This document shows positions 16,556 through 51,835 of a stretch of 64,000 bases of DNA, one piece after another. The notes under the pieces are model-generated. The model made no database searches. It had not been told where the DNA came from and worked only from the letters and a program-made list of their open reading frames with translations. The DNA comes from an uncultured Acidimicrobiia bacterium (GTDB taxonomy: Bacteria; Actinomycetota; Acidimicrobiia; Acidimicrobiales; AC-14). The position numbers were made by a program, and so were the translations under genes. The stretch covers positions 32,001 through 96,000 of the forward strand of contig CAWIIV010000011.1 of assembly GCA_963836205.1 (NCBI GenBank). Direction: 5' to 3'. Every line of letters starts with the position of its first letter. The stretch's first letter is position 1.

Positions 16556-18098
16556 CAACGAGTGGGGTGACTTCCAGACTCCCCAAGAACTGGCTGCCAT
16601 CGTCGTCTCATCAGTAGGGCGGACTCCCTGGGCGCGAGTGCTGGAGCCGACCTGCGGGGTCGGTCGGTTCCTGGAGGCCACGAGATCGCTCGGCGGCGAC
16701 ATCGAACGTCTCGGGATCGAGGTGCAGCCTCACTACTTCGAGGCCGCCAGGAACGATGGTTTCAACGTGCTGGCGCGGAACATCTTCGATCTCAACCTTG
16801 CTCGAGACCTGACGTGGCGCACGCGTGGACCGCTCCTGGTCGTAGGGAACCCGCCATGGGTCACCAACGCCCAGTTGGGCACCCTCGGGTCGATCAACCT
16901 GCCCGCGAAGTCGAATATCCGCGGTCGCAACGGGTTCGACGCCATGACTGGTTCGTCAAACTTCGACATCGCCGAGTACATCTTCTTGAAGCTGATGCTC
17001 GAATTGGAGGGCGAGCGGCCGACGATCGCACTGCTGGTAAAGACACACGTCGCGCGGAACGTGCTTTCGTTCGCTTCGCAGTTCAAGTTGCCGTACTCCG
17101 GCTTCACCATCCGGTCGATCAATGCCAAGGCGTGGTTCGGAGCGAGCGTGGACGCATGCCTGTTCACGGTCCAGCACTGTGAGGCGCCGGAGTACGTCTG
17201 CGACGTCTACCCCGGCATCGACAGCGCCGAGCCGTCGCACACCATCGGCGTCGTGGGCCACCGCCTGGTCGCCGACATGGACCTGTACCGGCGAACCGCT
17301 TTCGCCGACGGTCGTTCGCCATTGGAGTGGCGATCCGGGGTCAAGCATGACGCCTCTCGGGTCATGGAGGTTTCGGCAGAGACCCGAACGCGACTTGCGC
17401 TTGAGGATGAGTTCGTCTTCCCGCTGCTGAAGTGTACCGACCTCTTTCGCGGCCGGCTCACACCAACCAAGTTCATGGTCGTTCCTCAGCTTCGATTCGG
17501 TGAGGACACCGCCCATCTGCGGCAGAAGGCTCCCAAGCTGTGGGCCTACCTCGACTCTCATGCCGAAACGCTCGACAAGAGAGCGTCGTCCATCTATCGG
17601 AACCAGCCACGATTCGCGGTATTTGGTCTCGGGGAGTATACCTTCTCGCGATACAAGATCGCGATTTCGGGTTTCCACAAAGAGATCCGTTTTGTCCTGC
17701 TGAATGAGTTCGAGAAGCGACCGATCGTCGTGGACGATGCCTGCTACACGCTCTCGTTCGATGATGGCGCAGAAGCGTCGATGTGCCATGCCCTGCTTGG
17801 GACACAGAGCGTGACCGACCTGCTTCGCTCCCTCGCGTTCTGGGACGCCAAGCGGCCAATCAACAAGACCTTGCTCCAGCGCATCGACCTGTTGGCGATC
17901 GCCCGCAAAGCAGAACTGACGGAGTTGGTTCCCTTGGCGGACGAGGCCGCGGAACGACTGGGGATCGACCCTCCGTGCTCCTGGCAGGGAACACTTGACA
18001 AGCTCATGCACGACTGGGAGATCCCGGCTCCCAACCATCGGCGGCCGCGTCCTGTAAAGGCCAGGTCATCGGAGACCGCCCTCACATTCGACGTGTAG
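16548..18098 (+). CDS. N6-adenine DNA methyltransferase (gamma class)
   Basis: GDFQTP, LEPTCGVGRFL (motif I), VVGNPPW (motif IV), C-terminal TRD. Confidence 0.9.
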   Translation: MPNNEWGDFQTPQELAAIVVSSVGRTPWARVLEPTCGVGRFLEATRSLGGDIERLGIEVQPHYFEAARNDGFNVLARNIFDLNLARDLTWRTRGPLLVVGNPPWVTNAQLGTLGSINLPAKSNIRGRNGFDAMTGSSNFDIAEYIFLKLMLELEGERPTIALLVKTHVARNVLSFASQFKLPYSGFTIRSINAKAWFGASVDACLFTVQHCEAPEYVCDVYPGIDSAEPSHTIGVVGHRLVADMDLYRRTAFADGRSPLEWRSGVKHDASRVMEVSAETRTRLALEDEFVFPLLKCTDLFRGRLTPTKFMVVPQLRFGEDTAHLRQKAPKLWAYLDSHAETLDKRASSIYRNQPRFAVFGLGEYTFSRYKIAISGFHKEIRFVLLNEFEKRPIVVDDACYTLSFDDGAEASMCHALLGTQSVTDLLRSLAFWDAKRPINKTLLQRIDLLAIARKAELTELVPLADEAAERLGIDPPCSWQGTLDKLMHDWEIPAPNHRRPRPVKARSSETALTFDV

Positions 18099-39988: not shown

Positions 39989-40867
39989 TCAGCCCCGGCG
40001 GCAGCCGAGTGCGGTTTGCAGGGTGGCCAGGTTCTGGCGCATGAGCGAGAAGTAGTCGTCCTCGCCCTCGTTCTCCACGCCCTCGATGGTGTTCAGCACG
40101 GCCGTCGTCACCCCGGCCTCCCGGGCCAGGGTCTCCGCCACCTCGGGCGAGACCAGCTCCTCGGTGAAGATGGTGGTCACCCCCCGGCTCCTCACCAGGT
40201 CGGCCAGCTCGGCCAGGCGGCGGGGGTCGGGCTCGGCGTCGGGGGACAGGCCGGAGATGGCTACCTCCTCCAGGCCGTACCGGCGGACCAGGTAGCCGAA
40301 CGCCTGGTGGCTGGTGACGATGAGGCGGGAATCGCACTCGGCCAGGCCGGACCGGAGCTCGGCGTCGAGCTCGTCCAGCCGCCGGCGGTAGTCGTCGGCC
40401 CCCGCCCGGTAGGTGTCGGCATGGGCGGGGTCGACCTCGATCAGGGCCGCCTCGATCCCGTCGGCCACCTCGCCGAACACCACCGGGTCGAGCCACACGT
40501 GGGGGTCGTCCGCCTCCGCGCCGTCCAGGTCAGCCCGGAGGTCGACCGCGTTGGGTGTGAGCCGGGCCGCGTCCTCCACCGCCGGTTGAAAGCCGCCGCC
40601 CAGGTAGAACATGAGGTCGGCCGAGGCGATCCGGTCGAGCTGGCGGGGGTTGAGCTCGATGTCGTGGGGCTCGACGCCGGCCGGCGTGAGGTTGGCGACG
40701 TCGACCTGCTCACCGCCGACACCCCGGGTGGCATCGACCAGGGGGTAGAAGCTGGCCACCACCGACAGCCGCCCGTCGCCCGAGGACCCCGAGCCGCGCT
40801 CACCGCCGCACCCGCCCAACAGGACGGCGAGGGAGACGATGACGCCGACCGCCTGTGTTCTGCGCAT
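39989..40867 (-). CDS. znuA: Zn ABC transporter substrate-binding lipoprotein
   Basis: LGGC lipobox, VVASFYP, GVEPHD, DPHVWLDP, SHQAFGY. Confidence 0.92.
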   Translation of the reverse strand: MRRTQAVGVIVSLAVLLGGCGGERGSGSSGDGRLSVVASFYPLVDATRGVGGEQVDVANLTPAGVEPHDIELNPRQLDRIASADLMFYLGGGFQPAVEDAARLTPNAVDLRADLDGAEADDPHVWLDPVVFGEVADGIEAALIEVDPAHADTYRAGADDYRRRLDELDAELRSGLAECDSRLIVTSHQAFGYLVRRYGLEEVAISGLSPDAEPDPRRLAELADLVRSRGVTTIFTEELVSPEVAETLAREAGVTTAVLNTIEGVENEGEDDYFSLMRQNLATLQTALGCRRG

Positions 40868-40886
40868 GCCCGGCACGGTACCACGG

Positions 40887-40927: not shown

Positions 40928-41836
40928 CTAGGGCGGCGGCGGTTCCACCTTGGGGGCCGGTCCGAGGCGGGCCAGTTCCCGCTCCACGTCGTCCCAGAGC
41001 AGGAGGCCGTCGGCCTCGCCGTACTCCTTCTGGCTCGACTCCTCCCGGGAGTACCAGCGGAAGAAGATCACCGCGATCACGATCCACAGGTAGAACCCGG
41101 CCCCCACCTTCATGATCAGGCCCGCGAACAACTGGTCGTTGAGGGCCGAGATGTCCCACAGCCGGGGGAACGTCTCGTAGATCGGGTAAAGCGGCTTCTT
41201 GCCGAAGGTGAGGAAGGAGGCCGGCACCGTCGGGACCACCGTCTGGAGGAACAGGTAGAGCATCTGCACCGGCGGTTTCAACCGGGGGACCTCGGGCAGG
41301 GGGCTCAACACCGGGAACCACATGAGCACGGCCGAGGTCAGCAGCACCGCGTGGGCGATGAAATGCAGCGGGTGGTGGACCACCGTGGCCTCCACCACCG
41401 CCGGCCAGTGGCTCAGGACGAGGATCAGGTTGGCCTGGAACAGGGCGAGCGCGGGCTTGGAGAAGGCCCGCACGATCTTGAGCAGCCCCGGCGGGCTGAG
41501 CAGCCGCCGCATGAGCCAGCCGGGCGTTCCCAGCAGGAGCAGGGGCGCCACCACCAGCGTGAGCGTGAGGTGCTGGGCCATGTGGGCGCTGTAGAGGTAG
41601 CCCTCGGCCAGGTCGTGCACCGGCCAGTCGGAGACACCCCACATGACGGCCATCCCCAGGCCGAAGGCCCACAGCTGGCCGCGGGTGGCGACGGCCTCAG
41701 CGCCAGGTCCCCGGCGGGCCCGCTCCCGCCGCAGGGCGACGAGGTAGCCGAGGATGATGAGGGAGAAGAGCGCCCAGCTGTCGAAGTGGGCGTGCCAGGC
41801 GGGGAAGGGGACGGCCGCAGCCGCTATCGGTGCCAA
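40928..41836 (-). CDS. ctaG: Cytochrome c oxidase assembly factor CtaG (caa3 type)
   Basis: SAHMAQH, APLLLLG, H..P, DQLFAGLIMK. Confidence 0.88.
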   Translation of the reverse strand: MAPIAAAAVPFPAWHAHFDSWALFSLIILGYLVALRRERARRGPGAEAVATRGQLWAFGLGMAVMWGVSDWPVHDLAEGYLYSAHMAQHLTLTLVVAPLLLLGTPGWLMRRLLSPPGLLKIVRAFSKPALALFQANLILVLSHWPAVVEATVVHHPLHFIAHAVLLTSAVLMWFPVLSPLPEVPRLKPPVQMLYLFLQTVVPTVPASFLTFGKKPLYPIYETFPRLWDISALNDQLFAGLIMKVGAGFYLWIVIAVIFFRWYSREESSQKEYGEADGLLLWDDVERELARLGPAPKVEPPPP

Positions 41837-42180
41837 ATGTGGAACGTCGACAACACGCTGACGTAGCAGAACAGGGCCAGGACGAGGCCGGTGACGAAGA
41901 AGCGGCGGAACAGCTTGCTGTCGAAGCGCAGGTGCATGAAGAACATCACGACCACGCTGAACTTCACGACCGCCATGATCACCAGGATGTAGACCAGCAG
42001 CCCCTCCAGGGCCTCCACGTAGTAGACGCCCACCTCGGCCGCGGTGACCACGGCCAGGAAGAGGGCGATGTAGACGTACTGGAGGTCGCTCGGGTGCTCG
42101 TGGGCGGCGCCGTGGGCCGGCCCCCCGTGCTCGGGCGGGGTGTCGACGACGGGCCCCCCGGTGGGGTCGGTAGCCGTCAT
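41824..42180 (-). CDS. Cytochrome c oxidase subunit IV (COX4_pro)
   Basis: YVYIALFLAVVTAAEV, KFSVVVMFFMHLRFD. Confidence 0.88.
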   Translation of the reverse strand: MTATDPTGGPVVDTPPEHGGPAHGAAHEHPSDLQYVYIALFLAVVTAAEVGVYYVEALEGLLVYILVIMAVVKFSVVVMFFMHLRFDSKLFRRFFVTGLVLALFCYVSVLSTFHIWHR

Positions 42181-42824
42181 GGGATGAGGTACACGAGGGT
42201 GAAGATCACGATCCAGACGATGTCGACGAAGTGCCAGTAGAGGCCGATGAGCTCGACCACCTCGGCTTTGGCCGACGGTAGCTTCCCCTTCAGGGACATG
42301 CTCCAAAGCGACAGGAGCATGAGCACGCCGATGGTGACGTGGGCCCCGTGGAAGCCGGTCATGATGTAGAAGCTGCTGCCGAAGAGATTGGTGCGGAGGT
42401 TGAGGCCTTCCCGCACGAAGACGGTGAACTCGTAGGCCTGGCCGGCCACGAAGCTCCCGCCCAGCAGGGCGGTGGTGAGCAGCCACACCCGTAGGGCCCG
42501 GTGGTCGCCCCGCTGGATTGCCGACAGGGCCAGCACCATGGTGAGGCTGCTCATGAGCAGGACGAACGAGCTGACCGATGTGTAGGGGATGTCGAAGATG
42601 TCGGCCGGGTTGATCGTCCCCGGCTCGCTCTGGCCCTTATAGAGCAAATACGTCGATATCAGCCCCCCGAAGAGGAGGCACTCCGAGCCCAGGAAGGCCC
42701 ACATCGCCACCTTCTCGTTGCTGAGTCCGGTGGAGGTGGGGGGATGGCCGGGCTCCACCTCGTGGTGGCTGCCCTCGGAGCTGCTTTCGGGGGATGCGGA
42801 GACGTCGTGGTCGGTGACGGTCAT
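42177..42824 (-). CDS. ctaE: Cytochrome c oxidase subunit III
   Basis: MWAFLGSE, LLMSS, TGFHGAHV, LYWHFVDIVW. Confidence 0.95.
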   Translation of the reverse strand: MTVTDHDVSASPESSSEGSHHEVEPGHPPTSTGLSNEKVAMWAFLGSECLLFGGLISTYLLYKGQSEPGTINPADIFDIPYTSVSSFVLLMSSLTMVLALSAIQRGDHRALRVWLLTTALLGGSFVAGQAYEFTVFVREGLNLRTNLFGSSFYIMTGFHGAHVTIGVLMLLSLWSMSLKGKLPSAKAEVVELIGLYWHFVDIVWIVIFTLVYLIP

Positions 42825-44968
42825 CCCTGGCCCACCGGCTGGAGGTCTTCGGACGGCGAGTCGTCGGGGGCCAGGGCGGCGTCGTGGCCGTTGGGCTCCT
42901 CCGGCGGCTCCGGCTCGGTGGCCGGCTCGAGTCCCCAGGAGTAGATGCCGCCGAGCATCCAGATGCCGCCGATCACGGCCACGACCCAGAACTTGTAGAT
43001 CATCCCGTAGCAGATGACCGCCAGTCCGACGGCGGTGAAGGCGGGCCAGTACGAGGGCGACGGCAGGTGGATGTGGACGTGCTCCTCGTGGTCGTCCCCG
43101 TGCTCGCCGTCGTGATCACCGTCGGGGCCGTCAGCGTGGTCGCCGTGATCAGCGTCGTGGCCGTCACCGTCGGCGAGGACGACGTCGGTGGACGCCTCCA
43201 CCTCGTCGGTGGCCTCCTCCTGGGGCGACACCTTGGCGTCGGCCGGGATGGGCTTGTCCCGCAGGACCGCCCGGCCGTGCTCGTCCTCGGTGTACTTCTG
43301 GTGCCAGAAGTCGTCGCGGGCGGTGACGGTGGGCACTTCCTTGAAGTTGTACTCGGGCGGCGGGGACGGGATGGTCCACTCCAGGGTGCGGGCGTCCCAG
43401 GGGTCGTCGCCGACGTGGGGACCCTTGCGGCTGACCCACAGGTTGTACATGAACACCATCACCGACAGGGCGATGAGGAACGAGCCCAGGGTGGCCACGA
43501 AGTTCCACACGTCCCAGCCCCGGCCCGTGGGGTACGTGTAGACCCGCCGGGGCATGCCCTGCAGGCCGAGGATGTGGAACGGGGCGAAGGTGGCGTTGAA
43601 CCCGATCATCGTCAGCCAGAAGTGGACCTTGCCCATGCGGTCGGACAGCATCCGCCCGGTGAGCTTGGGGTACCAGTAGTAGAGCCCGGCGAAGAGGCCG
43701 AAGATGCTGCCGCCGAAGAGCACGTAGTGGAAGTGGGCGACGATGTAGTAGGTGTCGGTCTGCTGGGTGTCGGAGGGGACGACGGCGTGGGTCACTCCCG
43801 ACAGCCCGCCGATGGTGAACATGGTCACGAACCCGACCGCGAACAGCAGGGGAGTGGTGAGGCGGATCTTGCCTTTCCACAGGGTGCTGATCCAGTTGAA
43901 GATCTTCACGCCGGTTGGCACCGCGATGAACATGGTGGAGGCGCTGAAGGCGGACAGGGCGACGGGGCCGAGGCCGGTGGCGAACATGTGGTGGGCCCAC
44001 ACGCCCCAGCCCATGAAGCCGATGGCGATGCCCGAGAACACCATGACCTGGTAGCCGAACAGGGGTTTCCGGGAGAACACCGGTAACACCTCGGACACGA
44101 TCCCCATCGCAGGGAGGATCAGGATATAGACCTCCGGATGGCCGAAGAGCCAGAAGAGGTGTTGCCAGAGCAGGGGGTCGGCCCCCGCCTCGGCGTTGAA
44201 GAAGTTGGTGGCGAAGAGCCGGTCGAAGCTGAGCAGGAACAGGGCCACGGTGATGACCGGGATGGCGAAGAGCAGCAGGAACTGGGCCACCAGCGACATC
44301 CACACGAAGATGGGCATCCGCATGAGGCTCATGCCCGGGGCCCGCATGTTGATGACGGTGACGATCAGGTTGACGGCACCGGTCAGCGAGGCGATGCCCA
44401 GGATCTGGAGGCCGAAGACCCAGTAGTCGATGTTGTGGCCGGGCATGTTGCGGGTGAGGGGGGCGTAGCCGAACCAGCCGCCGTTGGGCGCCCCGCCCAG
44501 GAAGAAGCTGGAGTACATGAACAGTCCGCCGACGATGAACACCCAGTAGCCGAAGGCGTTGAGCCGGGGAAACGCCACGTCGCGGGCACCGATCATGAGC
44601 GGCAGCAGGTAGTTGGCGAGCCCGGCCGACAGGGGCATGATCACCAGGAAGATCATGGTGGTGCCGTGCATGGTGAAGATCTGGTTGTAGGCGTCGGCGC
44701 TGAGGAAGGTGCTGTTGGGCGAACCCAGCTGGACTCGCAGCAGGAGGGCCTCGATGCCGCCGATCAGGAAGAAGATCATGGCCGAGACGGCGTAGAGGAC
44801 GCCGATCTTCTTGTGGTCGACGGTGGTGATCCACCCCCACAGGCCCTTGGCGTCGCCGGTGGGCCGCCGGAGGAGGCGGGTGGGGGCCTTGGCGTCGGGG
44901 GTGCCGGGTGCGCCAGGGCCGACGGGTGAGGCCGGGGCCGCGGGCGCCGGTTGGGTGACGATGGCCAT
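42821..44968 (-). CDS. ctaD: Cytochrome c oxidase subunit I (A1 type, intact), with a His/Asp-rich C-terminal extension
   Basis: FTMHG, GARDVAFPRLN, GHPEVY, WAHH, PTGVK, AHFHY, GMPRR. Confidence 0.97.
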   Translation of the reverse strand: MAIVTQPAPAAPASPVGPGAPGTPDAKAPTRLLRRPTGDAKGLWGWITTVDHKKIGVLYAVSAMIFFLIGGIEALLLRVQLGSPNSTFLSADAYNQIFTMHGTTMIFLVIMPLSAGLANYLLPLMIGARDVAFPRLNAFGYWVFIVGGLFMYSSFFLGGAPNGGWFGYAPLTRNMPGHNIDYWVFGLQILGIASLTGAVNLIVTVINMRAPGMSLMRMPIFVWMSLVAQFLLLFAIPVITVALFLLSFDRLFATNFFNAEAGADPLLWQHLFWLFGHPEVYILILPAMGIVSEVLPVFSRKPLFGYQVMVFSGIAIGFMGWGVWAHHMFATGLGPVALSAFSASTMFIAVPTGVKIFNWISTLWKGKIRLTTPLLFAVGFVTMFTIGGLSGVTHAVVPSDTQQTDTYYIVAHFHYVLFGGSIFGLFAGLYYWYPKLTGRMLSDRMGKVHFWLTMIGFNATFAPFHILGLQGMPRRVYTYPTGRGWDVWNFVATLGSFLIALSVMVFMYNLWVSRKGPHVGDDPWDARTLEWTIPSPPPEYNFKEVPTVTARDDFWHQKYTEDEHGRAVLRDKPIPADAKVSPQEEATDEVEASTDVVLADGDGHDADHGDHADGPDGDHDGEHGDDHEEHVHIHLPSPSYWPAFTAVGLAVICYGMIYKFWVVAVIGGIWMLGGIYSWGLEPATEPEPPEEPNGHDAALAPDDSPSEDLQPVGQG

Positions 44969-45024
44969 CAGGAGCGCCCGGCCGCGATAGGCCACGTCGG
45001 GGGAAGGAGGTGGTGTTCGGTCAC
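44968..45024 (-). other. Mini-ORF bridging the ctaC stop and ctaD start
   Basis: GTGA overlap, MTEHHLLPPTWPIAAGRS*, TGATG overlap. Confidence 0.5.
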
Positions 45025-46085
45025 TGCAACGTCTCCAGGTAGGCGATGAGCTGGTCGATCTCGTCGTCGGTGAGGCCCAGGTCGGGCATCAGCGAGCCGG
45101 GCTTGACCGCAGGCGGGTCCGCCAGCCAGGTGCGGAGGTTCTCCTCGTTGAGGTTGAAGATGCTGCCGGCGAAGGTCTTGCGGCTCTGGAAGTGGGTGAG
45201 GTCGGGACCGATCTTGCCCTGCGAGACCCCGGCCACCGTGTGGCAGCCGGCGCAGCCCTTGGCGCTGAAGAGAGCCAGGCCCTCGGCCGCGGGGCCGCCC
45301 GCGGGCGGGGTGACAGCGGCCGAGCGCTGTCGCGCCACCCAGGTGTCGAAGTTGGCCGGGGTGTGGGCGACGGCCTGGGCTCGCATGTTGGCGTGGGAGA
45401 GCCCGCAGAACTCGGTGCACTGCCCGAGGTAGGTGCCGGGCTTGTCGGCCTCGAAGCTCATATGGTTGACCCGGCCGGGGATGACGTCGGTCTTCCCGGC
45501 GAGGGGCGGGATCCAGTAGCTGTGGATGACGTCGACGCTCTCCAGGTTGAGCTCGACGGGCATGCCGGCGGGGATGTTGAGCTCGTTGGCGGTGGTGATG
45601 CCGAGATCGTCGTAGCGGTACTCCCACCAGTACTGGTGGCCGATGACGGTGACGTGGAGGGCGTTGGCCGGCTTCTCGGCCAGGTCGAAGATGGTGGCGA
45701 TCGTGGGGATGGCGATGGCGAACAGGATGAGGGCGGGGATGAGCGTCCAGCCCACCTCGAGCTTGGTGTTGCCGTGGATCTGCTCCGGCTCGGGCCCGGG
45801 CCGGTCACGGAACCTGATCACGCAGTAGAGGACGAGGGCGGGCACCAGCACGAGAAACACACCGGCGATGAGAAAAACCGGCTCGCTCAGGTCGAGGATC
45901 TTCTTGGCCACCGGACCCGCAGGCTCCATCGTGTCCTGGGGGGCCTTCTCGGCGCAGGCGCCGAGGGTGAGGAGGAGCCCGCCGCTGGCGAACGCGCCCA
46001 GACGCCGGAGCCCTCGGGCTGGACTCGTGAAGCCGTTCACATCAGTGACTCTCGCGGTTCGCTCCGCGCCCGTCCAATCCCTCAT
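45021..46085 (-). CDS. ctaC: Cytochrome c oxidase subunit II with fused cytochrome c (caa3)
   Basis: LGAC lipobox, HQYWWEY, DVIHSYW, CTEFCGLSHANM (CuA), CAGCH...MP. Confidence 0.96.
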   Translation of the reverse strand: MRDWTGAERTARVTDVNGFTSPARGLRRLGAFASGGLLLTLGACAEKAPQDTMEPAGPVAKKILDLSEPVFLIAGVFLVLVPALVLYCVIRFRDRPGPEPEQIHGNTKLEVGWTLIPALILFAIAIPTIATIFDLAEKPANALHVTVIGHQYWWEYRYDDLGITTANELNIPAGMPVELNLESVDVIHSYWIPPLAGKTDVIPGRVNHMSFEADKPGTYLGQCTEFCGLSHANMRAQAVAHTPANFDTWVARQRSAAVTPPAGGPAAEGLALFSAKGCAGCHTVAGVSQGKIGPDLTHFQSRKTFAGSIFNLNEENLRTWLADPPAVKPGSLMPDLGLTDDEIDQLIAYLETLQ

Positions 46086-46105
46086 GCCAGCCCCTTGGCC
46101 CTCAT
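46082..46105 (-). other. Mini-ORF bridging the cupredoxin-fusion stop and ctaC start
   Basis: ATGA-MRAKGLA-ATGA double overlap. Confidence 0.5.
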
Positions 46106-47103
46106 GCCACCTTGGCCTTGCCGTTCATGTTGGGGTGGACGTCGCACTGGAAGAAGTACTCGCCCGGTGCCGGGCTGGCGAAGTGGTAGGTGACCTCGGC
46201 CGGACCGGCCACGATGTCGCCCTTGAAGATGGGGGGCGCGGTGGCGTCGGCACCGCCGTAGAGCGACACGTTGTGGGGAATCCCCGTGTCGTCGTTCTTG
46301 AGGACGATCTCGGCCTCGCCTGCCGGCAGGGAGAACTCCTTGAGGTCGAAGGCGATGTCGTCGGCCACGATCTCGACCGCGCCGGGGGCGTGGCCCTCCT
46401 GGCCCCCGCCGTGGTGCTCGATGTGGCGCTCGCCGGCACTGGCCGCCACCAGTCCCCCGGCGATCATGAGCACGCCGGCGACGCCGAGCACGGAGACCAT
46501 GGTGCGGGCCGAGATCGACGGCCGCAGGGCGAGCAGGGTGGCCATCCCGAGGATGACGACGGCCACCGCCAGCGCGATCCAGGTGGATGCCATCTCGGGC
46601 ACGGCCAGCAGGATGCGGGACATGAAGTACATCAGCGAGGCGATGCAGAACAGCCCCAGGACGGGGATGCCGATGGGCAGGAGGTTGATCTGGCGACCGG
46701 TGGTGTCGGCCGACACCCGGGCCAGCCAGCCGGCGACGGTGACCAGTCCCAGGCCGACGCCGAAGTAGGCGGGCAGGGGCCCCACCACCAGGCCGAGCAG
46801 GAGGAGGGTGATCGAGAGGGCGGCGGTGAAGGGCCAGGAGCCGCCGGCCGGAAGGGGCGCCCGGGCGACCTCGTGGTAGGCGGGCGGGTCGGCGTCGGGG
46901 GCGACCCACTCGGGCGCGTCGTTGACCCGGAATCCGGCGACGACGACCCCGGCGAAGCCGGCCACGCCGACCAGGAGCAGGTAGAGGGTGATGCCCAGCC
47001 AGTCGCCGGTGAAGGCGCCGTAGACGATGCTCAGGAGGAGGGACGCGGCCGAGACGGGCAGGAAGATCCGCGACGGCTGGGTGAGGACGGCCGACTTCGC
47101 CAT
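46102..47103 (-). CDS. Actinobacterial subunit IV (CtaF)-like membrane protein fused to a type-1 blue-copper domain
   Basis: About 7 TM with LPAGGSWP. C-terminal PHNV...PGEYFFQCDVHPNMNG (His, Cys, His, Met). Confidence 0.8.
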   Translation of the reverse strand: MAKSAVLTQPSRIFLPVSAASLLLSIVYGAFTGDWLGITLYLLLVGVAGFAGVVVAGFRVNDAPEWVAPDADPPAYHEVARAPLPAGGSWPFTAALSITLLLLGLVVGPLPAYFGVGLGLVTVAGWLARVSADTTGRQINLLPIGIPVLGLFCIASLMYFMSRILLAVPEMASTWIALAVAVVILGMATLLALRPSISARTMVSVLGVAGVLMIAGGLVAASAGERHIEHHGGGQEGHAPGAVEIVADDIAFDLKEFSLPAGEAEIVLKNDDTGIPHNVSLYGGADATAPPIFKGDIVAGPAEVTYHFASPAPGEYFFQCDVHPNMNGKAKVA

Positions 47104-47762
47104 CAGCCGTTGACCCGGCTGAGCACGAACAGCACGGTGCCGATCGCGAACCAGATGGCATTGGTGTACTGGAAGAACAGGATGCCGCTGCGCAGCGGGT
47201 CGTGGTGGTCGGCGGTGAAGTGCCCGAGCAGCGAGCGTCCGGCCAGGAGCACGAGCAGGCCCATGGCCGTGAGCAGGTGCACCAGGTGGTAGCCGATGAG
47301 CACGTAGTAGAAGGTGCCGTAGGCGTGGTCGCCGACTCCGAAGCCGGCCTTGCCGAAGGCGGCCCACTCGGCGTTGGCCGCCGCCACCCCGAGGAACACG
47401 GTGAGGATCAGGGCGATGGCCACGTTGCGCTGGTCGTTCTCGCGCACCGCCCGGATCGCCCACATGGCCGCCGCGGAAGCCATGGTGACGGTGATGGTGA
47501 CGACGGAGGGGATGTAGGTGCCGACGCCGACGTCGACCGGCGGCCACGCCGACGACCCGTCCTTGACCGCGAAGTAGGCGGCCACGATGGTCGACAGCAC
47601 CATGGCGTCGGCCACCATGAACAGGTAGGTGCCGAGGGCCCGGGTGCGATCGGGGAGGACGCGGGCGGGCGTGGGCTTCACCCCGCTGGGCAGGGCGAGG
47701 GGCGCCGCGGGGGAGGCGGCCGGGGAGGCGTCGGTGCGGGCGGGCGCGGTGACGGCCGTCAC
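47103..47762 (-). CDS. Divergent oxidase subunit III paralog
   Basis: GTYLFMVADAM, WPP, YGTFYYVLIGYHLVH. The canonical YWHFVD is replaced by FFQYTN. Confidence 0.85.
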   Translation of the reverse strand: MTAVTAPARTDASPAASPAAPLALPSGVKPTPARVLPDRTRALGTYLFMVADAMVLSTIVAAYFAVKDGSSAWPPVDVGVGTYIPSVVTITVTMASAAAMWAIRAVRENDQRNVAIALILTVFLGVAAANAEWAAFGKAGFGVGDHAYGTFYYVLIGYHLVHLLTAMGLLVLLAGRSLLGHFTADHHDPLRSGILFFQYTNAIWFAIGTVLFVLSRVNG

Positions 47763-47779
47763 GAGCGATGAACCATCAT
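47759..47779 (-). other. Mini-ORF bridging the subunit-I paralog stop and subunit-III paralog start
   Basis: TGATG-MMVHRS-GTGA double overlap. Confidence 0.5.
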
Positions 47780-49458
47780 CAGGGCTGGGCCTCCGGTGGG
47801 GCCAGGTCGAGGAGGGGCGTCTCGGAGCGCACCTCGGGGAGGACGCGGAAGTTGTCGGCGGGCGGGGGCGACGTGGTGGTCCACTCCAGGGTGTGGCCGC
47901 CCCACGGATCGGATCCGGCGGCCTGACCCCGGCCGGCGAGCACACTGACCAGCAGGTTCAGGATCAGGAGCAGCACCCCGAACACGATGATCACCCCGCC
48001 GATGGAGGCGATGAGGTTGGCCGGCGCCCAGTTGCCGTCGGTGACGTAGCTGGCGGTGTGGGCGCCCATGTCCTGGATGCCGAGCACGAACATGGCCAGG
48101 AACGTGAGGTGCATGCCCCCCACCAGGGCCAGCCACTGGATGCGGCCGAGGCCCTCCGACAGGTGGCGGCCCCAGAGCTTGGGCGCCCAGTAGTAGATGG
48201 CGGCCACCGCGCCCGAGAGGGCAGCCCCGAAGAAGAGCGTGTGCTGGGTGGCGACGCCCCAGTAGTTGCGGTGGGAGCGGCCGCCGGCGTCGAGGCCGGC
48301 GATCAGCTCGCCGGCCAGGCCGATGGCGAGCAGGCTGATCATGCCCACCACGTGGAGCATCGGCACCGACCGCAGCCGCTGCTTGAGCGTCTTGTCCTTG
48401 CGGGCGGCGGTGACGATGGTGGCCAGCCAGTTCAGGATCAGGGAGGCCACCGGCAGCAGGACGAGGAGGACGCCGAGGGCGAACAGGGGCCGGGCCCGCC
48501 GCAGGTTGCCCACCTCGCTGCCCCAGCCGGCGAACGACAGGACCCCGATGGCGGCGATGGCGGCGATGGCCCGGGGGTGGCTGAAGAGCCGGCGGCGGGC
48601 GAACACGGGGATGATGTCGGACGCCGCCCCCAGGGCCGGCAGCAGGAGGGCCCACAGCAGGGGGAAGGCGCCGAACCAGAACAGCCGGGGCCACAGGAGA
48701 GGGTTGCCGCCCCGGGTGCCGGTGAACCCGTTGAAGACGTGGCCGCCGTAGTGGCGGTCGACGAAGAGCAGGAGGAGCACGCCCACCAGTACCGGGAGGG
48801 CCAGGAGCATCACCGCCGAGGACACGGTGGCGGACCAGCTGAACAGGGGGATGCGGGCCATGGTGAGGCCGGGCGCCCGCAGTTGGAGGACGGTGGCGAG
48901 CACGTTGATCGCCACCGTGATGGCCGCCACCGCCACCACGATCAGGCCCAGGATGAGCAGGTCGATGCCCTCGCCGGCGAAGGCGGCGCCCTCGGGGAGG
49001 GGCGAGCTGAGGGTCCATCCCCCCACCACGTCGGACACCAACGGGGCCGCCGCCACCATCGCCGCCCCGCCCAGGAACAGCCAGAGGGACAGGGCGTGGA
49101 CCCGGGGAAAGGCCATCCGGGTGGCGCCGATCTGGAGGGGCACCATGGCCGTGACCAGGCCCAGCCAGAGGGGGAGGAGGAAGAGGAACACCATCATCAC
49201 GCCGTGCATGGTGAAGAGCTGGCGGTAGGTGTTGCCGCCGACGACATCGAGGTCGGGGGCGGCCAGCTGCGACCGCATGATCATGGCCAGCACCCCGCCG
49301 GCCACGAGGAAGGCGAGGGAGGCGGCGATGAAGAGCGTGCCGATGACCTTGTGGTCGGTTCCGGCGGTGGAACCCTGGTCAACCTCGACCTCGACCGTCT
49401 CGGGCTCGGACGCGGCTCCGGGGGCGTCCGTCTCGGGACTGGCGTCGGTGATCGTCAT
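47779..49458 (-). CDS. Heme-copper oxidase subunit I paralog lacking the CuB/heme a3 ligands
   Basis: DHKVIG, FTMHG, AFPR, GGNPLLW, WAPKLWG, DPWGGHTLEW.TTSPPP are retained. HPEVY, HH, the first H of HFH and PRR are lost. Confidence 0.9.
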   Translation of the reverse strand: MTITDASPETDAPGAASEPETVEVEVDQGSTAGTDHKVIGTLFIAASLAFLVAGGVLAMIMRSQLAAPDLDVVGGNTYRQLFTMHGVMMVFLFLLPLWLGLVTAMVPLQIGATRMAFPRVHALSLWLFLGGAAMVAAAPLVSDVVGGWTLSSPLPEGAAFAGEGIDLLILGLIVVAVAAITVAINVLATVLQLRAPGLTMARIPLFSWSATVSSAVMLLALPVLVGVLLLLFVDRHYGGHVFNGFTGTRGGNPLLWPRLFWFGAFPLLWALLLPALGAASDIIPVFARRRLFSHPRAIAAIAAIGVLSFAGWGSEVGNLRRARPLFALGVLLVLLPVASLILNWLATIVTAARKDKTLKQRLRSVPMLHVVGMISLLAIGLAGELIAGLDAGGRSHRNYWGVATQHTLFFGAALSGAVAAIYYWAPKLWGRHLSEGLGRIQWLALVGGMHLTFLAMFVLGIQDMGAHTASYVTDGNWAPANLIASIGGVIIVFGVLLLILNLLVSVLAGRGQAAGSDPWGGHTLEWTTTSPPPADNFRVLPEVRSETPLLDLAPPEAQP

Positions 49459-49695
49459 TGCGTCGCGGACTGTAGTGGGCGGCCTCCTGGGTATTCGAAC
49501 TGAGAACCCCCGGTCGGCGACGGTCGCTCGCCACGGCGGACGGAAAAATTACTGTCTGCAGGGGTGCGGACGATGGTGCGAGCTCGAGCGTGCGCCGCCT
49601 TTCTGCGCCGGACGGTCGCCGGCCGACAAGACCGTTCGGTGACCCCGCCCTGCGAACGGGTGACGGTGAACGTCCTCTCCCGGCGGCGGAGGCGA

Positions 49696-50055
49696 GCCGT
49701 CTGCGAACCGGGGACGGATCCGGTGGCCAGGACCACCGAAAGTGTCACCGGTTGGAGGTGGGGCGGCGCCGTCTGCGAACCGGGGACGGATCCGGTGGCC
49801 AGGACCACCGAAAGTGTCACCGGTTCGAGGTGGGGCGGCGCCGTCTGCGAACCGGGGACGGATCCGGTGGCCAGGACCACCGAAAGTGTCACCGGTTGGA
49901 GGTGGGGGCGCGCCGTCTGCGAACTGGTGACGGATCTGGTGGCCAGGACCACCAGAAACGTCACCGGTTGGAGGTGGGGGCGCGCCGTCTGCGAACTGGT
50001 GACGGATCTGGTGGCCAGGACCACCAGAAACGTCACCGGTTGGAGGTGCAGGCGG
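49696..50055. repeat. Tandem array of five 72-bp units, each carrying a family A palindrome
   Basis: Units at 49696, 49768, 49840, 49912, 49984: gccgtctgcgaacyggkgacggatcyggtggccaggaccacc...gtcaccggtt.gaggtg. Confidence 0.95.
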
Positions 50056-50954
50056 TGAGTGTGCCTTCGGCGCCTGAGTGGCCGGGGGTTCTGGCCGCGT
50101 GGACGTTCGAGCCGGTGACGGTCGCGGGCCTGGCCTCGGCGGCGGTGGCCTACGGGCAGGCGTGCCGGGTGGCCCGGTCGCTCACTCCCCGCCACCCGGT
50201 CGACGCATGGCGGCGGGCGGCGTTCTTCGGCGGGCTGGCGGTGGTGGGGGTCGCCCTCCTCTCGCCGGTCGACACCTACGCCGACGCCCTCCTGTCGGTC
50301 CACATGGCCCAGCACGTGCTGCTGACCCTCGTGGCCGCGCCCCTGCTCCTCCTGGGCCGGCCGGGGGAGCTGGCCCTGCGGGTGGTGTCGCCCGCCCGCC
50401 GGCGGCGGTGGCTGCGGGCCGGCCACTCCCCGGCCGTCCGGCTGGCGTCGGCACCCCTCGTGGCCTGGACCGTCTTCGCCGCCGCGGGCTGGGTTGTCCA
50501 CTTCTCGCCCCTGTTCGACGCCGCCCTCCGGTCCCAGCAGGTGCACGTCGCCGAGCACGCCCTGTTCCTGGGCACCGCCCTGTTGTTCTGGTGGCCGGTC
50601 GTGGGCGGCCATCCCGGCCGGCGTCCACTGGCCCACCCTGTCCGCCTCCTCTACCTGGGGGTGGCGATGCCCCAGAACACGTTCTTGGCCCTGGCCATCC
50701 TCGGGGCCAACGGGGTCCTCTACTCCCACTACGCCGATCTGGCCCGCTCGTGGGGACCGTCGCCCTTGGCCGACCAGCGCCAGGGGGCGGGGCTCATGTG
50801 GGTGGCCGGCGACCTGATCCTGCTGGTGTCGGTGCTGTTGGTGGCCGCCGCGTGGGCCCGCCACGAGCAGCGGGCGACGGAGCGGGCCGAGCGGGCGGAG
50901 GACGCGGCCGCGGCCGAGGCCGAGGCCGGCGCGGGCGCCCCCGGTTCTCCTTAG
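50055..50954 (+). CDS. ctaG: Second CtaG-family oxidase assembly protein
   Basis: SVHMAQH, APLLLLG, EHALF, DQRQGAGLMW. Confidence 0.88.
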   Translation: MSVPSAPEWPGVLAAWTFEPVTVAGLASAAVAYGQACRVARSLTPRHPVDAWRRAAFFGGLAVVGVALLSPVDTYADALLSVHMAQHVLLTLVAAPLLLLGRPGELALRVVSPARRRRWLRAGHSPAVRLASAPLVAWTVFAAAGWVVHFSPLFDAALRSQQVHVAEHALFLGTALLFWWPVVGGHPGRRPLAHPVRLLYLGVAMPQNTFLALAILGANGVLYSHYADLARSWGPSPLADQRQGAGLMWVAGDLILLVSVLLVAAAWARHEQRATERAERAEDAAAAEAEAGAGAPGSP

Positions 50955-51835
50955 TGGGGCAGGAGCTGGTCGACGGCCATGGCGCCGAACAGGAGGGTGA
51001 TGTAGGTGATCGACCACCCGAACAGCCGCATGGCCTTCTCGTAGGTGCCGCTGCGGGCCAGGGCCACCGCATGCCAGGTGAAGATGGCGCCCAGGACGAT
51101 CGCCGCCCCCCCGTAGAGCAGGCCCATCTCGCCCACCGGCCAGAAGGCGAGGCTGATCGCCCACAGGATGAGGGTGTAGGCCACGATCCGGCGGGACGTG
51201 AACTCGAAGCTGGCCACCGACGGGAGCATGGGGACTCCGGCGGCCGAGTAGTCGTCGCGGTAGCGGACGGCGAGGGCCCAGAAGTGGGGCGGGGTCCAGG
51301 CGAAGATGATGCCGAAGAGCACGACCGGGGCCCAGCTCAGCGTCCCGGTGACTGCGGCCCAGCCGACCAGCACCGGCACCGCCCCCGCGGCCCCGCCGAT
51401 CACGATGTTCTGGGTCGACGTCCGCTTGAGCCACAGGCTGTAGACGAAGACGTAGAAGAGGGTGGCCGACACCGCCAGCAGGGCGCTCAGGGGGTTCACC
51501 GTCAGCCACAGGACCGCCGCCGCCAGCAGCTCGAGGGCGATGGCGAACACCAGGGCGTTGCGGGGCGTGATCTCGCCGGTGACCAGGGGGCGCTTCTGGG
51601 TGCGCTGCATGATCGTGTCGATGTCGCGGTCGATGACCATGTTGGTGGCGTTGGCGCCGGCCGCGGCCAGGGTGCCGCCGACCAGGGTGGCGAAGATGAG
51701 CCACACCTCCGGCATCCCCCGCTGGGCCACCACCATCGTCGGCACCGTGGTCACCAGGAGCAGCTCGATGATGCGCGGCTTGGTGAGCGCCAGGTAGGCC
51801 GCGAAACGGGAACGGGTGGTGAGAACGGCGGTCAT
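50951..51835 (-). CDS. ctaB: Protoheme IX farnesyltransferase (heme o synthase)
   Basis: LTKPRI, DRDID..M.RT..RP, LKR...QNIVIGG, WTPPHFWALA, DY..AGVPMLP. Confidence 0.96.
   Translation of the reverse strand: MTAVLTTRSRFAAYLALTKPRIIELLLVTTVPTMVVAQRGMPEVWLIFATLVGGTLAAAGANATNMVIDRDIDTIMQRTQKRPLVTGEITPRNALVFAIALELLAAAVLWLTVNPLSALLAVSATLFYVFVYSLWLKRTSTQNIVIGGAAGAVPVLVGWAAVTGTLSWAPVVLFGIIFAWTPPHFWALAVRYRDDYSAAGVPMLPSVASFEFTSRRIVAYTLILWAISLAFWPVGEMGLLYGGAAIVLGAIFTWHAVALARSGTYEKAMRLFGWSITYITLLFGAMAVDQLLPH

What the first reader, a model, noticed from the sequence alone, without database searches (positions are those of the whole stretch)
46102..49458. A 'pseudo-oxidase' module: subunit I paralog with low-spin heme ligands only, co-encoded with a canonical caa3 oxidase
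Seen, aligning it to the intact CtaD of the same operon: FTMHG is kept (heme a His). GHPEVY becomes AFPLLW (CuB His, Glu and cross-linked Tyr lost). WAHH becomes GWGSE (both CuB His lost). AHFHY becomes ATQHT (heme a3 His lost, second heme a His kept). GARDVAFPRLN becomes GATRMAFPRVH (D-channel lost), PTGVK becomes PVASL (K-channel lost), and GMPRR becomes DMGAH. The ORF is full length (559 aa), first in the operon, and has its own subunit III paralog and a blue-copper partner. Established: without these ligands it cannot reduce O2 or NO. Inference: selective retention of exactly the two low-spin ligands argues for function rather than decay, such as an electron-input or quinol-oxidising module, or an asymmetric active/inactive oxidase heterodimer. 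I know of no description of this arrangement, though I cannot search the literature.
Basis: partly seen in the sequence, partly recalled or inferred. Interest (0 to 1): 0.9.

Follow-up and report, generated by a model that had tools for sequence, protein, structure and literature searches.

The report
Dead oxidase paralog beside caa3 oxidase
An Acidimicrobiia bacterium encodes, next to a normal cytochrome c oxidase, a conserved second copy of the oxidase core that has lost its oxygen-reducing metal site; this looks like a previously uncatalogued non-catalytic accessory of the respiratory chain.

Summary
It lacks all three CuB His, the cross-linked Tyr, the high-spin heme His and the D/K-channel residues, but keeps both low-spin heme His.

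It is not decaying. All 119 homologs (55-91% identity) keep the same pattern, and its dN/dS (0.21-0.38) matches that of the real oxidase genes.

With psCOX3 and a 7-TM protein it forms a paralogous copy of the actinobacterial CtaD/CtaE/CtaF core. The 7-TM protein is a CtaF-like domain, a 3-TM anchor and a type-1 copper cupredoxin. The module always sits between ctaB and the ctaC of a caa3 operon.

Of 41 module orthologs sampled in the same order, 29 have lost both low-spin His, 8 keep one and 4 keep both. His-less copies are still under purifying selection (0.15-0.20).

The conserved role is therefore most likely structural: a dead oxidase core acting as scaffold or adaptor for caa3. The heme and blue copper of this lineage may be a retained, possibly redox-active, early state.

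My literature searches found no description of it. One standard HCO classifier discards such sequences.

The parts
47779..49458 (-). psCtaD: 559-aa COX1-family pseudo-subunit I. It keeps H85 and H406 (the low-spin heme ligands). It lacks the CuB His, the cross-linked Tyr, the high-spin heme His and the D/K-channel residues.
47103..47762 (-). psCOX3: 219-aa paralog of subunit III (5-TM CtaE type) with a GTG start. Its stop codon overlaps the ATG of the next gene.
46699..47103 (-). memCup residues 1-135: four TM helices, CtaF-like (actinobacterial subunit IV, the split-off TM1-2 of subunit III). This is the predicted interface with psCtaD.
46438..46680 (-). memCup residues 142-222: a three-helix 'TM2' anchor with the motif FMSRxLLAV. 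In other orders it occurs as a stand-alone TM2+cupredoxin gene after ctaG.
46102..46383 (-). memCup residues 241-333 plus stop codon: type-1 copper cupredoxin domain with ligands H277, C320, H323 and M326. It is auracyanin/amicyanin-like.
45021..46085 (-). CtaC: subunit II with a fused cytochrome c domain (caa3 type).
42821..44995 (-). CtaD: canonical subunit I with all six His, Tyr and D/K channels. It carries a C-terminal His/Asp-rich linker and two extra TM helices.
42177..42824 (-). CtaE: canonical subunit III.
41824..42180 (-). CtaF: COX4_pro-type subunit IV, 118 aa from ATG 42180.
40928..41836 (-). CtaG: Caa3_CtaG assembly factor.
50951..51835 (-). CtaB: heme O synthase (UbiA family). 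It lies upstream of the module in every related locus.
49590..50954 (+). Second Caa3_CtaG paralog, divergently oriented. The Pfam domain covers residues 188-424 of the ORF, so the true start probably lies downstream of the tandem repeat.
49696..50048 (.). 72-bp tandem repeat, 4.9 copies at 96% match, in the divergent region between psCtaD and the CtaG paralog.

Best explanation
Shown. psCtaD, psCOX3 and memCup are a paralogous, catalytically dead copy of the actinobacterial aa3 oxidase core. psCtaD corresponds to CtaD. psCOX3 plus the CtaF-like N-terminus of memCup correspond to CtaE + CtaF, the split subunit III. There is no subunit II. The binuclear centre and both proton channels are gone, so the module cannot reduce O2 or NO. 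It is under purifying selection. It is encoded directly upstream of the ctaC-ctaD-ctaE-ctaF-ctaG genes of a caa3 oxidase, with short gaps or overlapping stop and start codons. It was found only in genomes of the window's own order, and only in genomes that have that caa3 oxidase.

Inferred. The three products assemble into a stable membrane sub-complex, and the model supports psCtaD binding the CtaF-like domain. This sub-complex serves as a non-catalytic structural partner (scaffold or adaptor) of the co-encoded caa3 oxidase. In this lineage the scaffold still holds one bis-His heme in the low-spin site. It also tethers a type-1 copper domain on the outer face through a 3-TM anchor. That copper domain most likely shuttles electrons to the cytochrome c domain of CtaC. 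Whether the retained heme carries electrons or only stabilises the fold is open.

Across the order the module loses the cupredoxin and then the heme ligands, yet stays conserved. The shared function is therefore architectural rather than redox.
For: Ligand loss: BLASTP against the canonical CtaD and HMMER against mycobacterial CtaD.

Subfamily conservation (120 sequences including the window's):
- both low-spin His in 120 of 120;
- no His at CuB site 1 (Y 108, F 12);
- W replaces the cross-linked Tyr in 120 of 120;
- D-channel Asp is Arg in 119 of 120.

Selection (NG86 dN/dS): psCtaD 0.21-0.38, ctaD 0.21-0.32, ctaC 0.27-0.45, psCOX3 0.24-0.52, memCup 0.24-0.50.

Synteny: ctaB lies upstream in 19 of 19 family loci. 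psCOX3 and memCup lie downstream in 18 of 19, and the remaining contig ends there. ctaC-ctaD follows in 15 of 15 contigs that reach that far. Four more divergent loci have the same order, as do L090-L094 and L097.

Phylogeny: the 46 ligand-poor COX1 rows form one clade (SH-like support 100) in a 150-row FastTree. The window's family (7 rows) is sister to the other 39.

memCup domains:
- 7 TM helices plus a cupredoxin in the model, mean pLDDT 79.5.
- PF12270 Cyt_c_ox_IV matches 7 of 32 members, best E 1.6e-5.
- Profile positions 4-124 hit small ORFs directly next to actinobacterial-type ctaD genes, E 1e-7 to 1e-12.
- Profile positions 75-140 hit TM1-2 of solved subunit III chains, E 0.0015-0.02.
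- This matches the published statement that CtaF supplies TM1-2 of subunit III (PMC8361435, passages read).

Binding: complex prediction for psCtaD + memCup + heme scored 0.67, best of 3 controls 0.01. That mark was reached by 58 of 80 solved complexes and 2 of 110 mismatched pairs. The runs agree in at least 84% of contacts and partner pLDDT is at least 71. The interface is memCup residues 8-126.

Copper site: H277, C320, H323 and M326 are at least 90% conserved in 32 sequences. Foldseek finds auracyanin and amicyanin at E about 1e-7.

Order-wide picture:
- The full-length membrane-domain profile matches about 72 of 94 same-order genomes.
- In a phylum sample of 401 genomes it matches full length only in the same order, 21 of 23.
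- Of 41 module orthologs, 29 lack both low-spin His.
- His-less close pairs have dN/dS 0.15-0.20.
- R62, Y78 and G86 are lost together with the His.
- Five of five module-less same-order genomes have only 28-34%-identical CtaC hits without the cytochrome c domain.
Against: - No data show that the proteins are made, or that they sit in the oxidase complex.
- The complex prediction may pass only because psCtaD and the CtaF-like domain resemble the solved mycobacterial CtaD-CtaF pair. It placed no confident contact for the cupredoxin or the TM2 anchor.
- The CtaF-like assignment rests on several weak matches. The window's own PF12270 hit is E 0.024, below the curated cut-off. Foldseek hits to 8hcr_H and 6hwh_S are E 0.3-0.4.
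- Operon membership is equally expected for an assembly factor, since CtaG and CtaB are in the same cluster.
- The strict conservation of both His in the window's own subfamily fits a redox role as well as a structural one.
- caa3 operons in other orders work without the module (L095, L096 and L098). Whatever it adds is not essential to caa3 chemistry.
- The tree is FastTree only, and dN/dS by NG86 is biased in a 72% GC genome.
Confidence: 0.5

Rival explanations
1. Redox module. The retained bis-His heme and the type-1 copper form a working electron-transfer chain. This chain feeds the caa3 oxidase or oxidises quinol. The heme is the point of the protein.
For: - Both His are invariant in 120 of 120 subfamily sequences.
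- R62 is invariant in the subfamily and is lost together with the His elsewhere. From recall, this Arg is the one that hydrogen-bonds the heme a formyl group in canonical oxidases.
- The cupredoxin with intact type-1 copper ligands is fused to the module in this subfamily. It is present in the 17 family loci whose gene is complete.
- The window's family is the earliest branch of the ligand-poor clade. A redox-active ancestral state is therefore plausible.
Against: - 29 of 41 order-wide orthologs have neither His, and these copies are still under purifying selection.
- Lineages that keep both His but have no cupredoxin exist: L077, L081, L082 and L097.
- The predicted complex gives no confident cupredoxin-psCtaD contact.
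- The heme has no downstream acceptor inside the protein, because the a3/CuB site is gone.
- The genome already encodes two Rieske/cytochrome b complexes for quinol oxidation.
Confidence: 0.2
2. Biogenesis factor. The dead core is a transient assembly scaffold or a heme/copper hand-over platform for the caa3 oxidase. It is not a stoichiometric subunit of the mature enzyme.
For: - It sits between ctaB (heme O synthase) and ctaC.
- In many relatives ctaA is also adjacent. Examples are G295, G147, G167, G002 and G171, by comparing the coordinates.
- CtaG assembly factors flank the operon.
Against: - A full three-protein copy of subunits I, III and IV is a heavy solution for a chaperone.
- Heme-less lineages cannot hand over heme.
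- caa3 operons of other orders assemble without it.
- Translational coupling and tight gene spacing resemble those of the structural genes.
Confidence: 0.15
3. Independent membrane function unrelated to caa3. The old fold would be re-used, for example, as an ion or proton channel, a transporter or a sensor.
For: - Family-specific invariant polar residues replace the channel and site residues. These are R114 at the D-channel Asp and E315 near the former CuB His.
- Q109 is conserved in 41 of 41 order-wide orthologs where the canonical CtaD has Met.
Against: - The module is always embedded in the caa3 operon.
- It was not found in the five same-order genomes that lack caa3-type CtaC.
- R114 and E315 are not kept across the order.
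Confidence: 0.1
4. Decaying duplicate (pseudogene) with no function.
For: The catalytic ligands are lost.
Against: - The ORF is intact here, in 119 homologs and in 41 order-wide loci without internal stops.
- dN/dS is 0.15-0.38.
- Synteny is conserved down to 23-35% identity.
Confidence: 0.01

Closest known systems
Actinobacterial aa3 oxidase core CtaD/CtaE/CtaF, as in the Mycobacterium smegmatis and M. tuberculosis CIII2CIV2 supercomplex (6HWH, 8HCR)
   Same: - Its subunit I is the closest solved relative of psCtaD (8hcr_F, E 9.9e-97).
- Subunit III is split in the same way into a 5-TM CtaE-like protein and a CtaF-like protein that supplies TM1-2 (PMC8361435).
- The predicted psCtaD contact with the CtaF-like domain fits this arrangement.
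   Different: - There is no subunit II partner.
- CuB, heme a3, the cross-linked Tyr and the D and K channels are all missing.
- The CtaF-like part is fused to a 3-TM anchor and a type-1 copper domain.
- The module is encoded inside a caa3 operon, not next to qcrCAB.
Divergent HCO families (eNOR, sNOR, gNOR, nNOR and others) of Murali et al. 2024 (PMC11214002)
   Same: [quoted passage not shown]
   Different: - Those families keep a binuclear site. The paper calls gNOR, with one His changed to Asp, the first example of a replaced active-site His (passage read).
- Here all three CuB His and the high-spin heme His are gone, and in most of the order the low-spin His as well.
Membrane-tethered blue copper carriers of terminal oxidases: auracyanin, plus sulfocyanin SoxE, halocyanin and AcoP (these three recalled)
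   Same: - The fold and ligand set are those of a type-1 copper cupredoxin.
- Foldseek finds auracyanin 6kol at E 1.1e-7 and amicyanin 2idq at E 1.7e-7.
- One of 32 scanned members matches Pfam SoxE at E 0.0096. PF06525 is also a precomputed domain on three distant homologs.
- It is encoded with an oxidase.
   Different: - It is anchored by 7 TM helices, four of which are a CtaF-like oxidase subunit domain.
- In other Acidimicrobiia orders the same anchor plus cupredoxin is a separate gene after ctaG.
Catalytically dead paralogs kept as structural subunits of respiratory complexes, such as the core proteins of mitochondrial complex III derived from the matrix processing peptidase (recalled, analogy only)
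   Same: An enzyme fold is kept under selection after its active site is lost, apparently for architecture.
   Different: The protein family is unrelated. Here the dead copy is a paralog of the very enzyme it accompanies. Physical association is not yet shown.

Membership tests
Heme-copper oxidoreductase superfamily, subunit I fold (Pfam COX1 PF00115) | Full-length sequence homology to subunit I | tested here: met
   PF00115 at E 2.1e-84 and 284 bits against a cut-off of 34.8, covering 2-436 of 436 profile positions. 8hcr_F at E 9.9e-97.
Catalytic HCO (O2 or NO reductase) | Six conserved His: two for the low-spin heme, one for the high-spin heme and three for CuB/FeB | tested here: not met
   Only the two low-spin His are present. 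CuB sites read F, S/G and E, and the a3 site reads T. No sequence of the 120 carries the CuB or a3 His set; one has a single His at the column MAFFT aligned to CuB His 2.
Catalytic HCO (O2 reductase, A family) | His-Tyr cross-link tyrosine and the D and K proton channels | tested here: not met
   Tyr is Trp in 120 of 120. D-channel Asp is Arg in 119 of 120. K-channel Lys is Leu in 113 of 120.
Cytochrome c oxidase subunit III (Pfam COX3 PF00510) | Sequence homology over the 5-TM core | tested here: met
   psCOX3 matches PF00510 at E 2.8e-18 and 67 bits against a cut-off of 23.8. It is 21% identical to the operon's CtaE, E 5e-14.
Actinobacterial subunit IV / CtaF (Pfam Cyt_c_ox_IV PF12270) | Four-TM protein whose last two helices are the equivalent of TM1-2 of subunit III and which binds CtaD | tested here: inconclusive
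   - The window's own protein matches at E 0.024 and 15 bits, below the 26.9-bit cut-off. Seven of 32 members match at E up to 1, best E 1.6e-5.
- The profile hits ORFs next to actinobacterial-type ctaD genes.
- The profile hits TM1-2 of solved subunit III chains at E 0.0015-0.02.
- Foldseek's top hits are 8hcr_H and 6hwh_S, but at E 0.3-0.4.
- The predicted interface with psCtaD uses this domain.
Type-1 (blue) copper cupredoxin | Cupredoxin fold with the His, Cys, His, Met ligand set | tested here: met
   Cupredoxin_1 at 29.8 bits against a cut-off of 27, and Copper-bind at 22.9 bits against 21.2. H277, C320, H323 and M326 are at least 90% conserved. Auracyanin and amicyanin match at E about 1e-7. 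Copper binding itself cannot be tested here.
caa3-type cytochrome c oxidase (the canonical genes of the operon) | Subunit II with a fused cytochrome c, subunit I with the full ligand set, subunits III and IV, and CtaG | tested here: met
   CtaC carries COX2, COX2_TM and Cytochrom_C. CtaD matches PF00115 at E 4.7e-161 with all listed ligands. CtaE, CtaF (COX4_pro) and Caa3_CtaG are present.
Quinol oxidase of the bo3 / aa3-600 type | Quinol-binding residues in TM1-2 of subunit I | not tested
   I did not align psCtaD to CyoB or QoxB residue by residue. By recall of the E. coli site the residues appear absent, but this is not a tool result.

The most novel reading that the evidence does not exclude
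A whole order of Actinomycetota builds an asymmetric respiratory assembly. A dead copy of the actinobacterial aa3 core (CtaD, CtaE and CtaF, the subunits that mediate complex III-IV docking in mycobacteria) has been recruited as a permanent adaptor of a caa3 oxidase. It would dock the oxidase to a Rieske/cytochrome b complex and/or hold the blue-copper carrier in place. The order preserves an evolutionary series, from a heme- and copper-bearing pseudo-oxidase (this window) to a completely cofactor-free one. [quoted passage not shown]
Probability: 0.3. Interest if true: 0.85.

Novelty: new variant of a known kind. Interest (0 to 1): 0.72.

Why it matters
[quoted passage not shown] One widely used classifier explicitly discards sequences that lack them (PMC3084760, Methods passage read). 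A large, conserved, monophyletic group of subunit I paralogs has therefore gone uncatalogued.
- These genes are annotated as 'cytochrome c oxidase subunit I' or 'cbb3-type oxidase subunit I'. Metagenomic inventories of Acidimicrobiia would count them as extra terminal oxidases.
- If the module is a structural partner of caa3, it is a bacterial case of a respiratory enzyme that recruits a dead copy of an oxidase core.
- It also offers a natural series for asking what the low-spin heme contributes to the fold and what the subunit I/III scaffold does apart from catalysis.

Tried and rejected
- **Decay.** Rejected on conservation and dN/dS.
- **Alternative catalytic HCO (NOR-like).** Rejected because no metal ligands remain at the binuclear site.
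- **Heme A synthase substitute.** CtaA (PF02628) was not found in the window's genome, which is 88.6% complete. It is present in 99 of 101 genomes of the order, including the same genus. The gap is most likely an assembly gap, so I dropped the idea.
- **Distribution by psCtaD profile.** This failed to discriminate. Canonical CtaD of the same genome scored 470 and 411 bits against 962 for psCtaD, and other genomes' best hits were at most 471 bits. I used the memCup membrane-domain profile instead.
- **Foldseek on full-length memCup.** It returned only cupredoxins. The membrane-domain model gave only weak hits, with no match at E <= 0.001.
- **Expression.** No RNA holder was listed for window 46102-49458.
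- **Complex prediction.** It was used once, for psCtaD + memCup + heme.
- **Literature.** Eight searches found no description of ligand-less subunit I paralogs. A bioRxiv hit was read in passages and is irrelevant. The SI and Dataset S1 of PMC11214002 could mention such sequences.
- **Dropped rows.** In one search the two 'ctaD ... L015' rows were dropped. That contig ends after psCtaD, so the script compared psCtaD with ctaD.
- **Alignment caveat.** In some searches the window's own helix-X segment is shifted by one column. I counted the other rows on the canonical columns.

Full report
**What is in the window.** The region is about 72% GC. On the minus strand, eight tightly packed genes follow a divergent intergenic region:

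| Gene | Coordinates | Note |
|---|---|---|
| psCtaD | 49458-47779 | 559 aa |
| psCOX3 | 47762-47103 | GTG start 16 nt after the psCtaD stop |
| memCup | 47103-46102 | its ATG overlaps the psCOX3 stop |
| ctaC | 46085-45021 | |
| ctaD | 44995-42821 | |
| ctaE | 42824-42177 | |
| ctaF | 42180-41824 | |
| ctaG | 41836-40928 | |

Pfam assigns COX1 to psCtaD (E 2.1e-84) and to CtaD (E 4.7e-161). It assigns COX3 to psCOX3 and CtaE. CtaC carries COX2, COX2_TM and cytochrome c. CtaF is COX4_pro and CtaG is Caa3_CtaG. memCup carries Cupredoxin_1 and Copper-bind. Upstream lie ctaB (51835-50951, -) and, on the plus strand, a second Caa3_CtaG paralog. A 72-bp repeat of 4.9 copies sits between that paralog and psCtaD.

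**Checking the observation.** HMMER against the closest solved chain, mycobacterial CtaD 8hcr_F (E 9.9e-97), gives the same register. H85 and H406 lie on the two low-spin heme His. T404 lies on the high-spin heme His. AFPLLW lies on GHPEVY, and WGSE lies on WAHH.

**It is a conserved family, not decay.** The word-indexed search returned 702 proteins at E <= 1e-20 among 8000 scored candidates. The best 120 listed, the window's own plus 119 homologs, are 55-91% identical to it. Where labelled, they come from Acidimicrobiia, Acidimicrobiales or Actinomycetota MAGs. They are annotated as ordinary 'cytochrome c oxidase subunit I' or 'cbb3-type ... subunit I'. In an alignment of these 120 sequences:
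- both low-spin His are invariant (120 of 120);
- CuB His 1 is Tyr (108) or Phe (12);
- the cross-link Tyr is Trp (120 of 120);
- the D-channel Asp is Arg (119 of 120);
- the K-channel Lys is Leu (113 of 120);
- the high-spin heme His is Gln, Thr, Glu or Tyr.

Pairwise Nei-Gojobori dN/dS against five or six close relatives gives these ranges:

| Gene | dN/dS |
|---|---|
| psCtaD | 0.21-0.38 |
| ctaD | 0.21-0.32 |
| ctaC | 0.27-0.45 |
| psCOX3 | 0.24-0.52 |
| memCup | 0.24-0.50 |
| ctaE | 0.10-0.28 |

Two artefact rows involving L015 were dropped. The absolute values are inflated by GC-driven codon bias. The point is that the pseudo-genes behave like the real oxidase genes.

**Synteny.** A scan of one genome per species found 19 loci with a psCtaD of 43-84% identity.
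- ctaB lies upstream in 19 of 19.
- psCOX3 and memCup follow in 18 of 19, and the remaining contig ends there.
- ctaC-ctaD follows in all 15 contigs that extend far enough. One of these, L010, has an inserted ZnuA-like gene.
- Four further loci, brought in by their canonical ctaD, carry a 31-33%-identical psCtaD in the same position.

**What memCup is.** The AlphaFold model (mean pLDDT 79.5) has seven TM helices: 9-32, 35-58, 90-107, 109-135, 142-167, 170-193 and 199-222. A cupredoxin follows at 243-332. Its ligands H277, C320, H323 and M326 are at least 90% conserved in 32 homologs. Foldseek finds auracyanin and amicyanin at E about 1e-7.

Several weak but concordant results tie the first four helices to actinobacterial CtaF:
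- PF12270 matches 7 of 32 members (best E 1.6e-5; the window's own E 0.024, below the cut-off).
- A profile of the membrane domain hits, with its positions 4-124, small ORFs directly beside actinobacterial-type ctaD genes, E 1e-7 to 1e-12.
- Its positions 75-140 hit the first two helices of solved subunit III chains, E 0.0015-0.02.
- The top two Foldseek hits of the membrane-domain model are the 139-residue chains 8hcr_H and 6hwh_S of the mycobacterial supercomplex, but only at E 0.3-0.4.

A review states that mycobacterial subunit III is split into CtaE and CtaF. It says CtaF supplies the equivalents of TM1-2. It also says CtaE and CtaF make the main contacts to complex III (PMC8361435, passages read). 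The module is therefore a paralog of the CtaD + CtaE + CtaF core without a subunit II.

The next three helices ('TM2', motif FMSRxLLAV) together with a cupredoxin occur in other Acidimicrobiia orders as a separate 241-aa gene. That gene lies just after the ctaG of caa3 operons that have no pseudo-module. In this lineage the blue-copper carrier of caa3 has been fused to the CtaF-like subunit of the dead core.

**Predicted binding.** Complex prediction for psCtaD + memCup with heme riding along scored 0.67, against 0.01 for the best of three controls. That mark was reached by 58 of 80 solved complexes and 2 of 110 mismatched pairs. The runs agree in at least 84% of contacts, and partner pLDDT is at least 71. 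The confident interface uses memCup residues 8-126. On psCtaD it uses residues 113-134, 163-223, 255-325 and 534-552. Mycobacterial CtaD-CtaF complexes are solved, so the pass may reflect that likeness. It shows that the pair still looks like a CtaD-CtaF pair, not that it binds. No confident contact was given for the TM2 anchor or the cupredoxin.

**The order-wide view changes the interpretation.**
- In a FastTree of 150 rows, all 46 rows of one clade (SH-like support 100) are ligand-poor. The rows were the best 50%-identity cluster representatives of at least 480 aa, the two window proteins and seven locus proteins. The window's family (7 rows) is sister to the other 39, many of which lack all six His.
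- With the memCup membrane-domain profile as marker, full-length matches occur in about 72 of 94 sampled genomes of the window's own order (73 by the family tallies, one of which is a CtaF-only hit). In other orders of the class only the TM2 part matches.
- In a phylum-wide sample of 401 genomes, full-length matches are again confined to the same order (21 of 23). Outside the class there are 13 TM2-only matches.
- I fetched the region upstream of the marker from 41 same-order genomes. Every one has an intact COX1-like ORF there.
- On the canonical His columns, 4 of the 41 keep both low-spin His, 8 keep one and 29 keep neither.
- R62, Y78 and G86, invariant in the window's subfamily, disappear together with the His. 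R62 is kept in 2 of 4, 0 of 8 and 1 of 29. This argues that the His-bearing lineages really bind heme and the others really do not.
- What stays conserved in all 41 is a set of loop and interface positions: P96, G100, P107, Q109, R119, R194, P266 and W424 in all 41, and E525-W526 in 40 of 41. Several of these lie in the predicted contact with the CtaF-like domain.
- Close pairs of His-less orthologs have dN/dS 0.15, 0.19 and 0.20, and a one-His pair has 0.16. More distant pairs give 0.24-0.69, and two pairs are saturated.

**Link to caa3.** Five same-order genomes that lack the marker have only 28-34%-identical CtaC matches that stop before the cytochrome c domain. They therefore appear to lack a caa3-type oxidase. 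Conversely, caa3 operons without the module exist in other orders (L095, L096 and L098). In the genomes examined, the module occurs only with caa3.

**Genome context.** The same genome (88.6% complete) also has an actinobacterial-type ctaC-ctaD next to a qcr cytochrome b. It has a second Rieske / split cytochrome b6 / diheme cytochrome c cluster with a 2x[4Fe-4S] protein beside the nuo genes. No cytochrome bd was found. Quinol oxidation is thus already provided for.

**Interpretation.**
- *Shown:* the module is a conserved, selected, catalytically dead paralog of an oxidase core that is genomically bound to caa3.
- *Inferred:* it forms a psCtaD/psCOX3/CtaF-like sub-complex that acts as a structural partner of caa3. 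In this lineage it still carries a bis-His heme and tethers the blue-copper electron carrier.
- *Reasoning:* most of the order has shed the heme ligands, and many lineages the cupredoxin, while keeping the proteins under selection. The shared function is therefore architectural.
- *Possible early state:* the window's subfamily is the earliest branch and keeps both cofactors, so it may represent an earlier, possibly still redox-active, state.
- *Untested hypothesis:* CtaE and CtaF are the complex III docking surface in mycobacteria. This makes an adaptor role between caa3 and a Rieske/cytochrome b complex attractive.

**Novelty.** Eight full-text searches found no description. The HCO classifier paper states that sequences lacking the six His were discarded (PMC3084760). 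Murali et al. 2024 describe the active-site His as completely conserved in all families except gNOR (PMC11214002). I could not see supplements. [quoted passage not shown]

Noticed in passing
window 49696-50048: A 72-bp tandem repeat, 4.9 copies at 96% match, lies in the divergent region between psCtaD and the plus-strand CtaG paralog. This is where the operon's promoter should be. Read in frame, it gives the repeated peptide seen in two spurious long ORFs.
   Followed up: partly
window 42821-43300 (C-terminal part of ctaD, minus strand): The canonical CtaD carries a C-terminal extension. It has a His/Asp/Gly-rich acidic linker, then two extra TM helices with a weak match to Cyt_c_ox_IV (E 0.0029) and to the haloarchaeal DUF7541. 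This is probably a fused equivalent of subunit III TM1-2. The His-rich stretch could bind metal.
   Followed up: no
window 49590-50954 (+) and 40928-41836 (-): Two Caa3_CtaG paralogs flank the operon (E 7.3e-66 and 1.1e-46). The plus-strand copy is present in 9 of the 19 family loci (L004-L010, L014 and L015) and absent between ctaB and psCtaD in the rest.
   Followed up: partly
window 39989-40876 (-): A gene directly after ctaG encodes a lipoprotein that, read by eye, resembles a ZnuA-type metal-binding component of an ABC transporter. I ran no family scan on it. It is conserved in that position in the closest relatives. It could supply metal for oxidase assembly.
   Followed up: no
G000:C11:125867-129766 (outside the window; locus L087): A Rieske/cytochrome b cluster lies next to the nuo genes. 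It has a 2x[4Fe-4S] ferredoxin-like protein, a split cytochrome b6 with a subunit IV-like part, a Rieske protein and a diheme cytochrome c. It is a candidate electron donor complex for the caa3 oxidase.
   Followed up: partly
whole genome G000: No heme A synthase (CtaA, PF02628) was found in this 88.6%-complete assembly. By contrast, 99 of 101 genomes of the order have one, often next to ctaB and the module. This is probably an assembly gap.
   Followed up: yes
L104 and L110 (G295:C59, G171:C44): One sub-lineage of module psCtaDs keeps both helix-X His (HLHTV, HIHMV) and the Glu and Tyr of the GHPEVY motif (GRPE[IV]Y), but has Arg for CuB His 1 and no HH pair. It may be a two-heme, copper-free intermediate form.
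   Followed up: no
L016, L018 and L019: In one branch of the family, memCup carries two tandem cupredoxin domains, each with the His, Cys, His, Met ligand set.
   Followed up: no
representatives P0149, P0193, P0224, P0256, P0153, P0170, P0204, P0221 and P0231: Other COX1-like proteins with few or no metal ligands fall outside the 46-row clade, among canonical A-family sequences. Loss of ligands may therefore have happened more than once. Their taxa could not be looked up.
   Followed up: no
window 16001-18000: GC content drops to 0.60, against about 0.72 elsewhere in the window.
   Followed up: no
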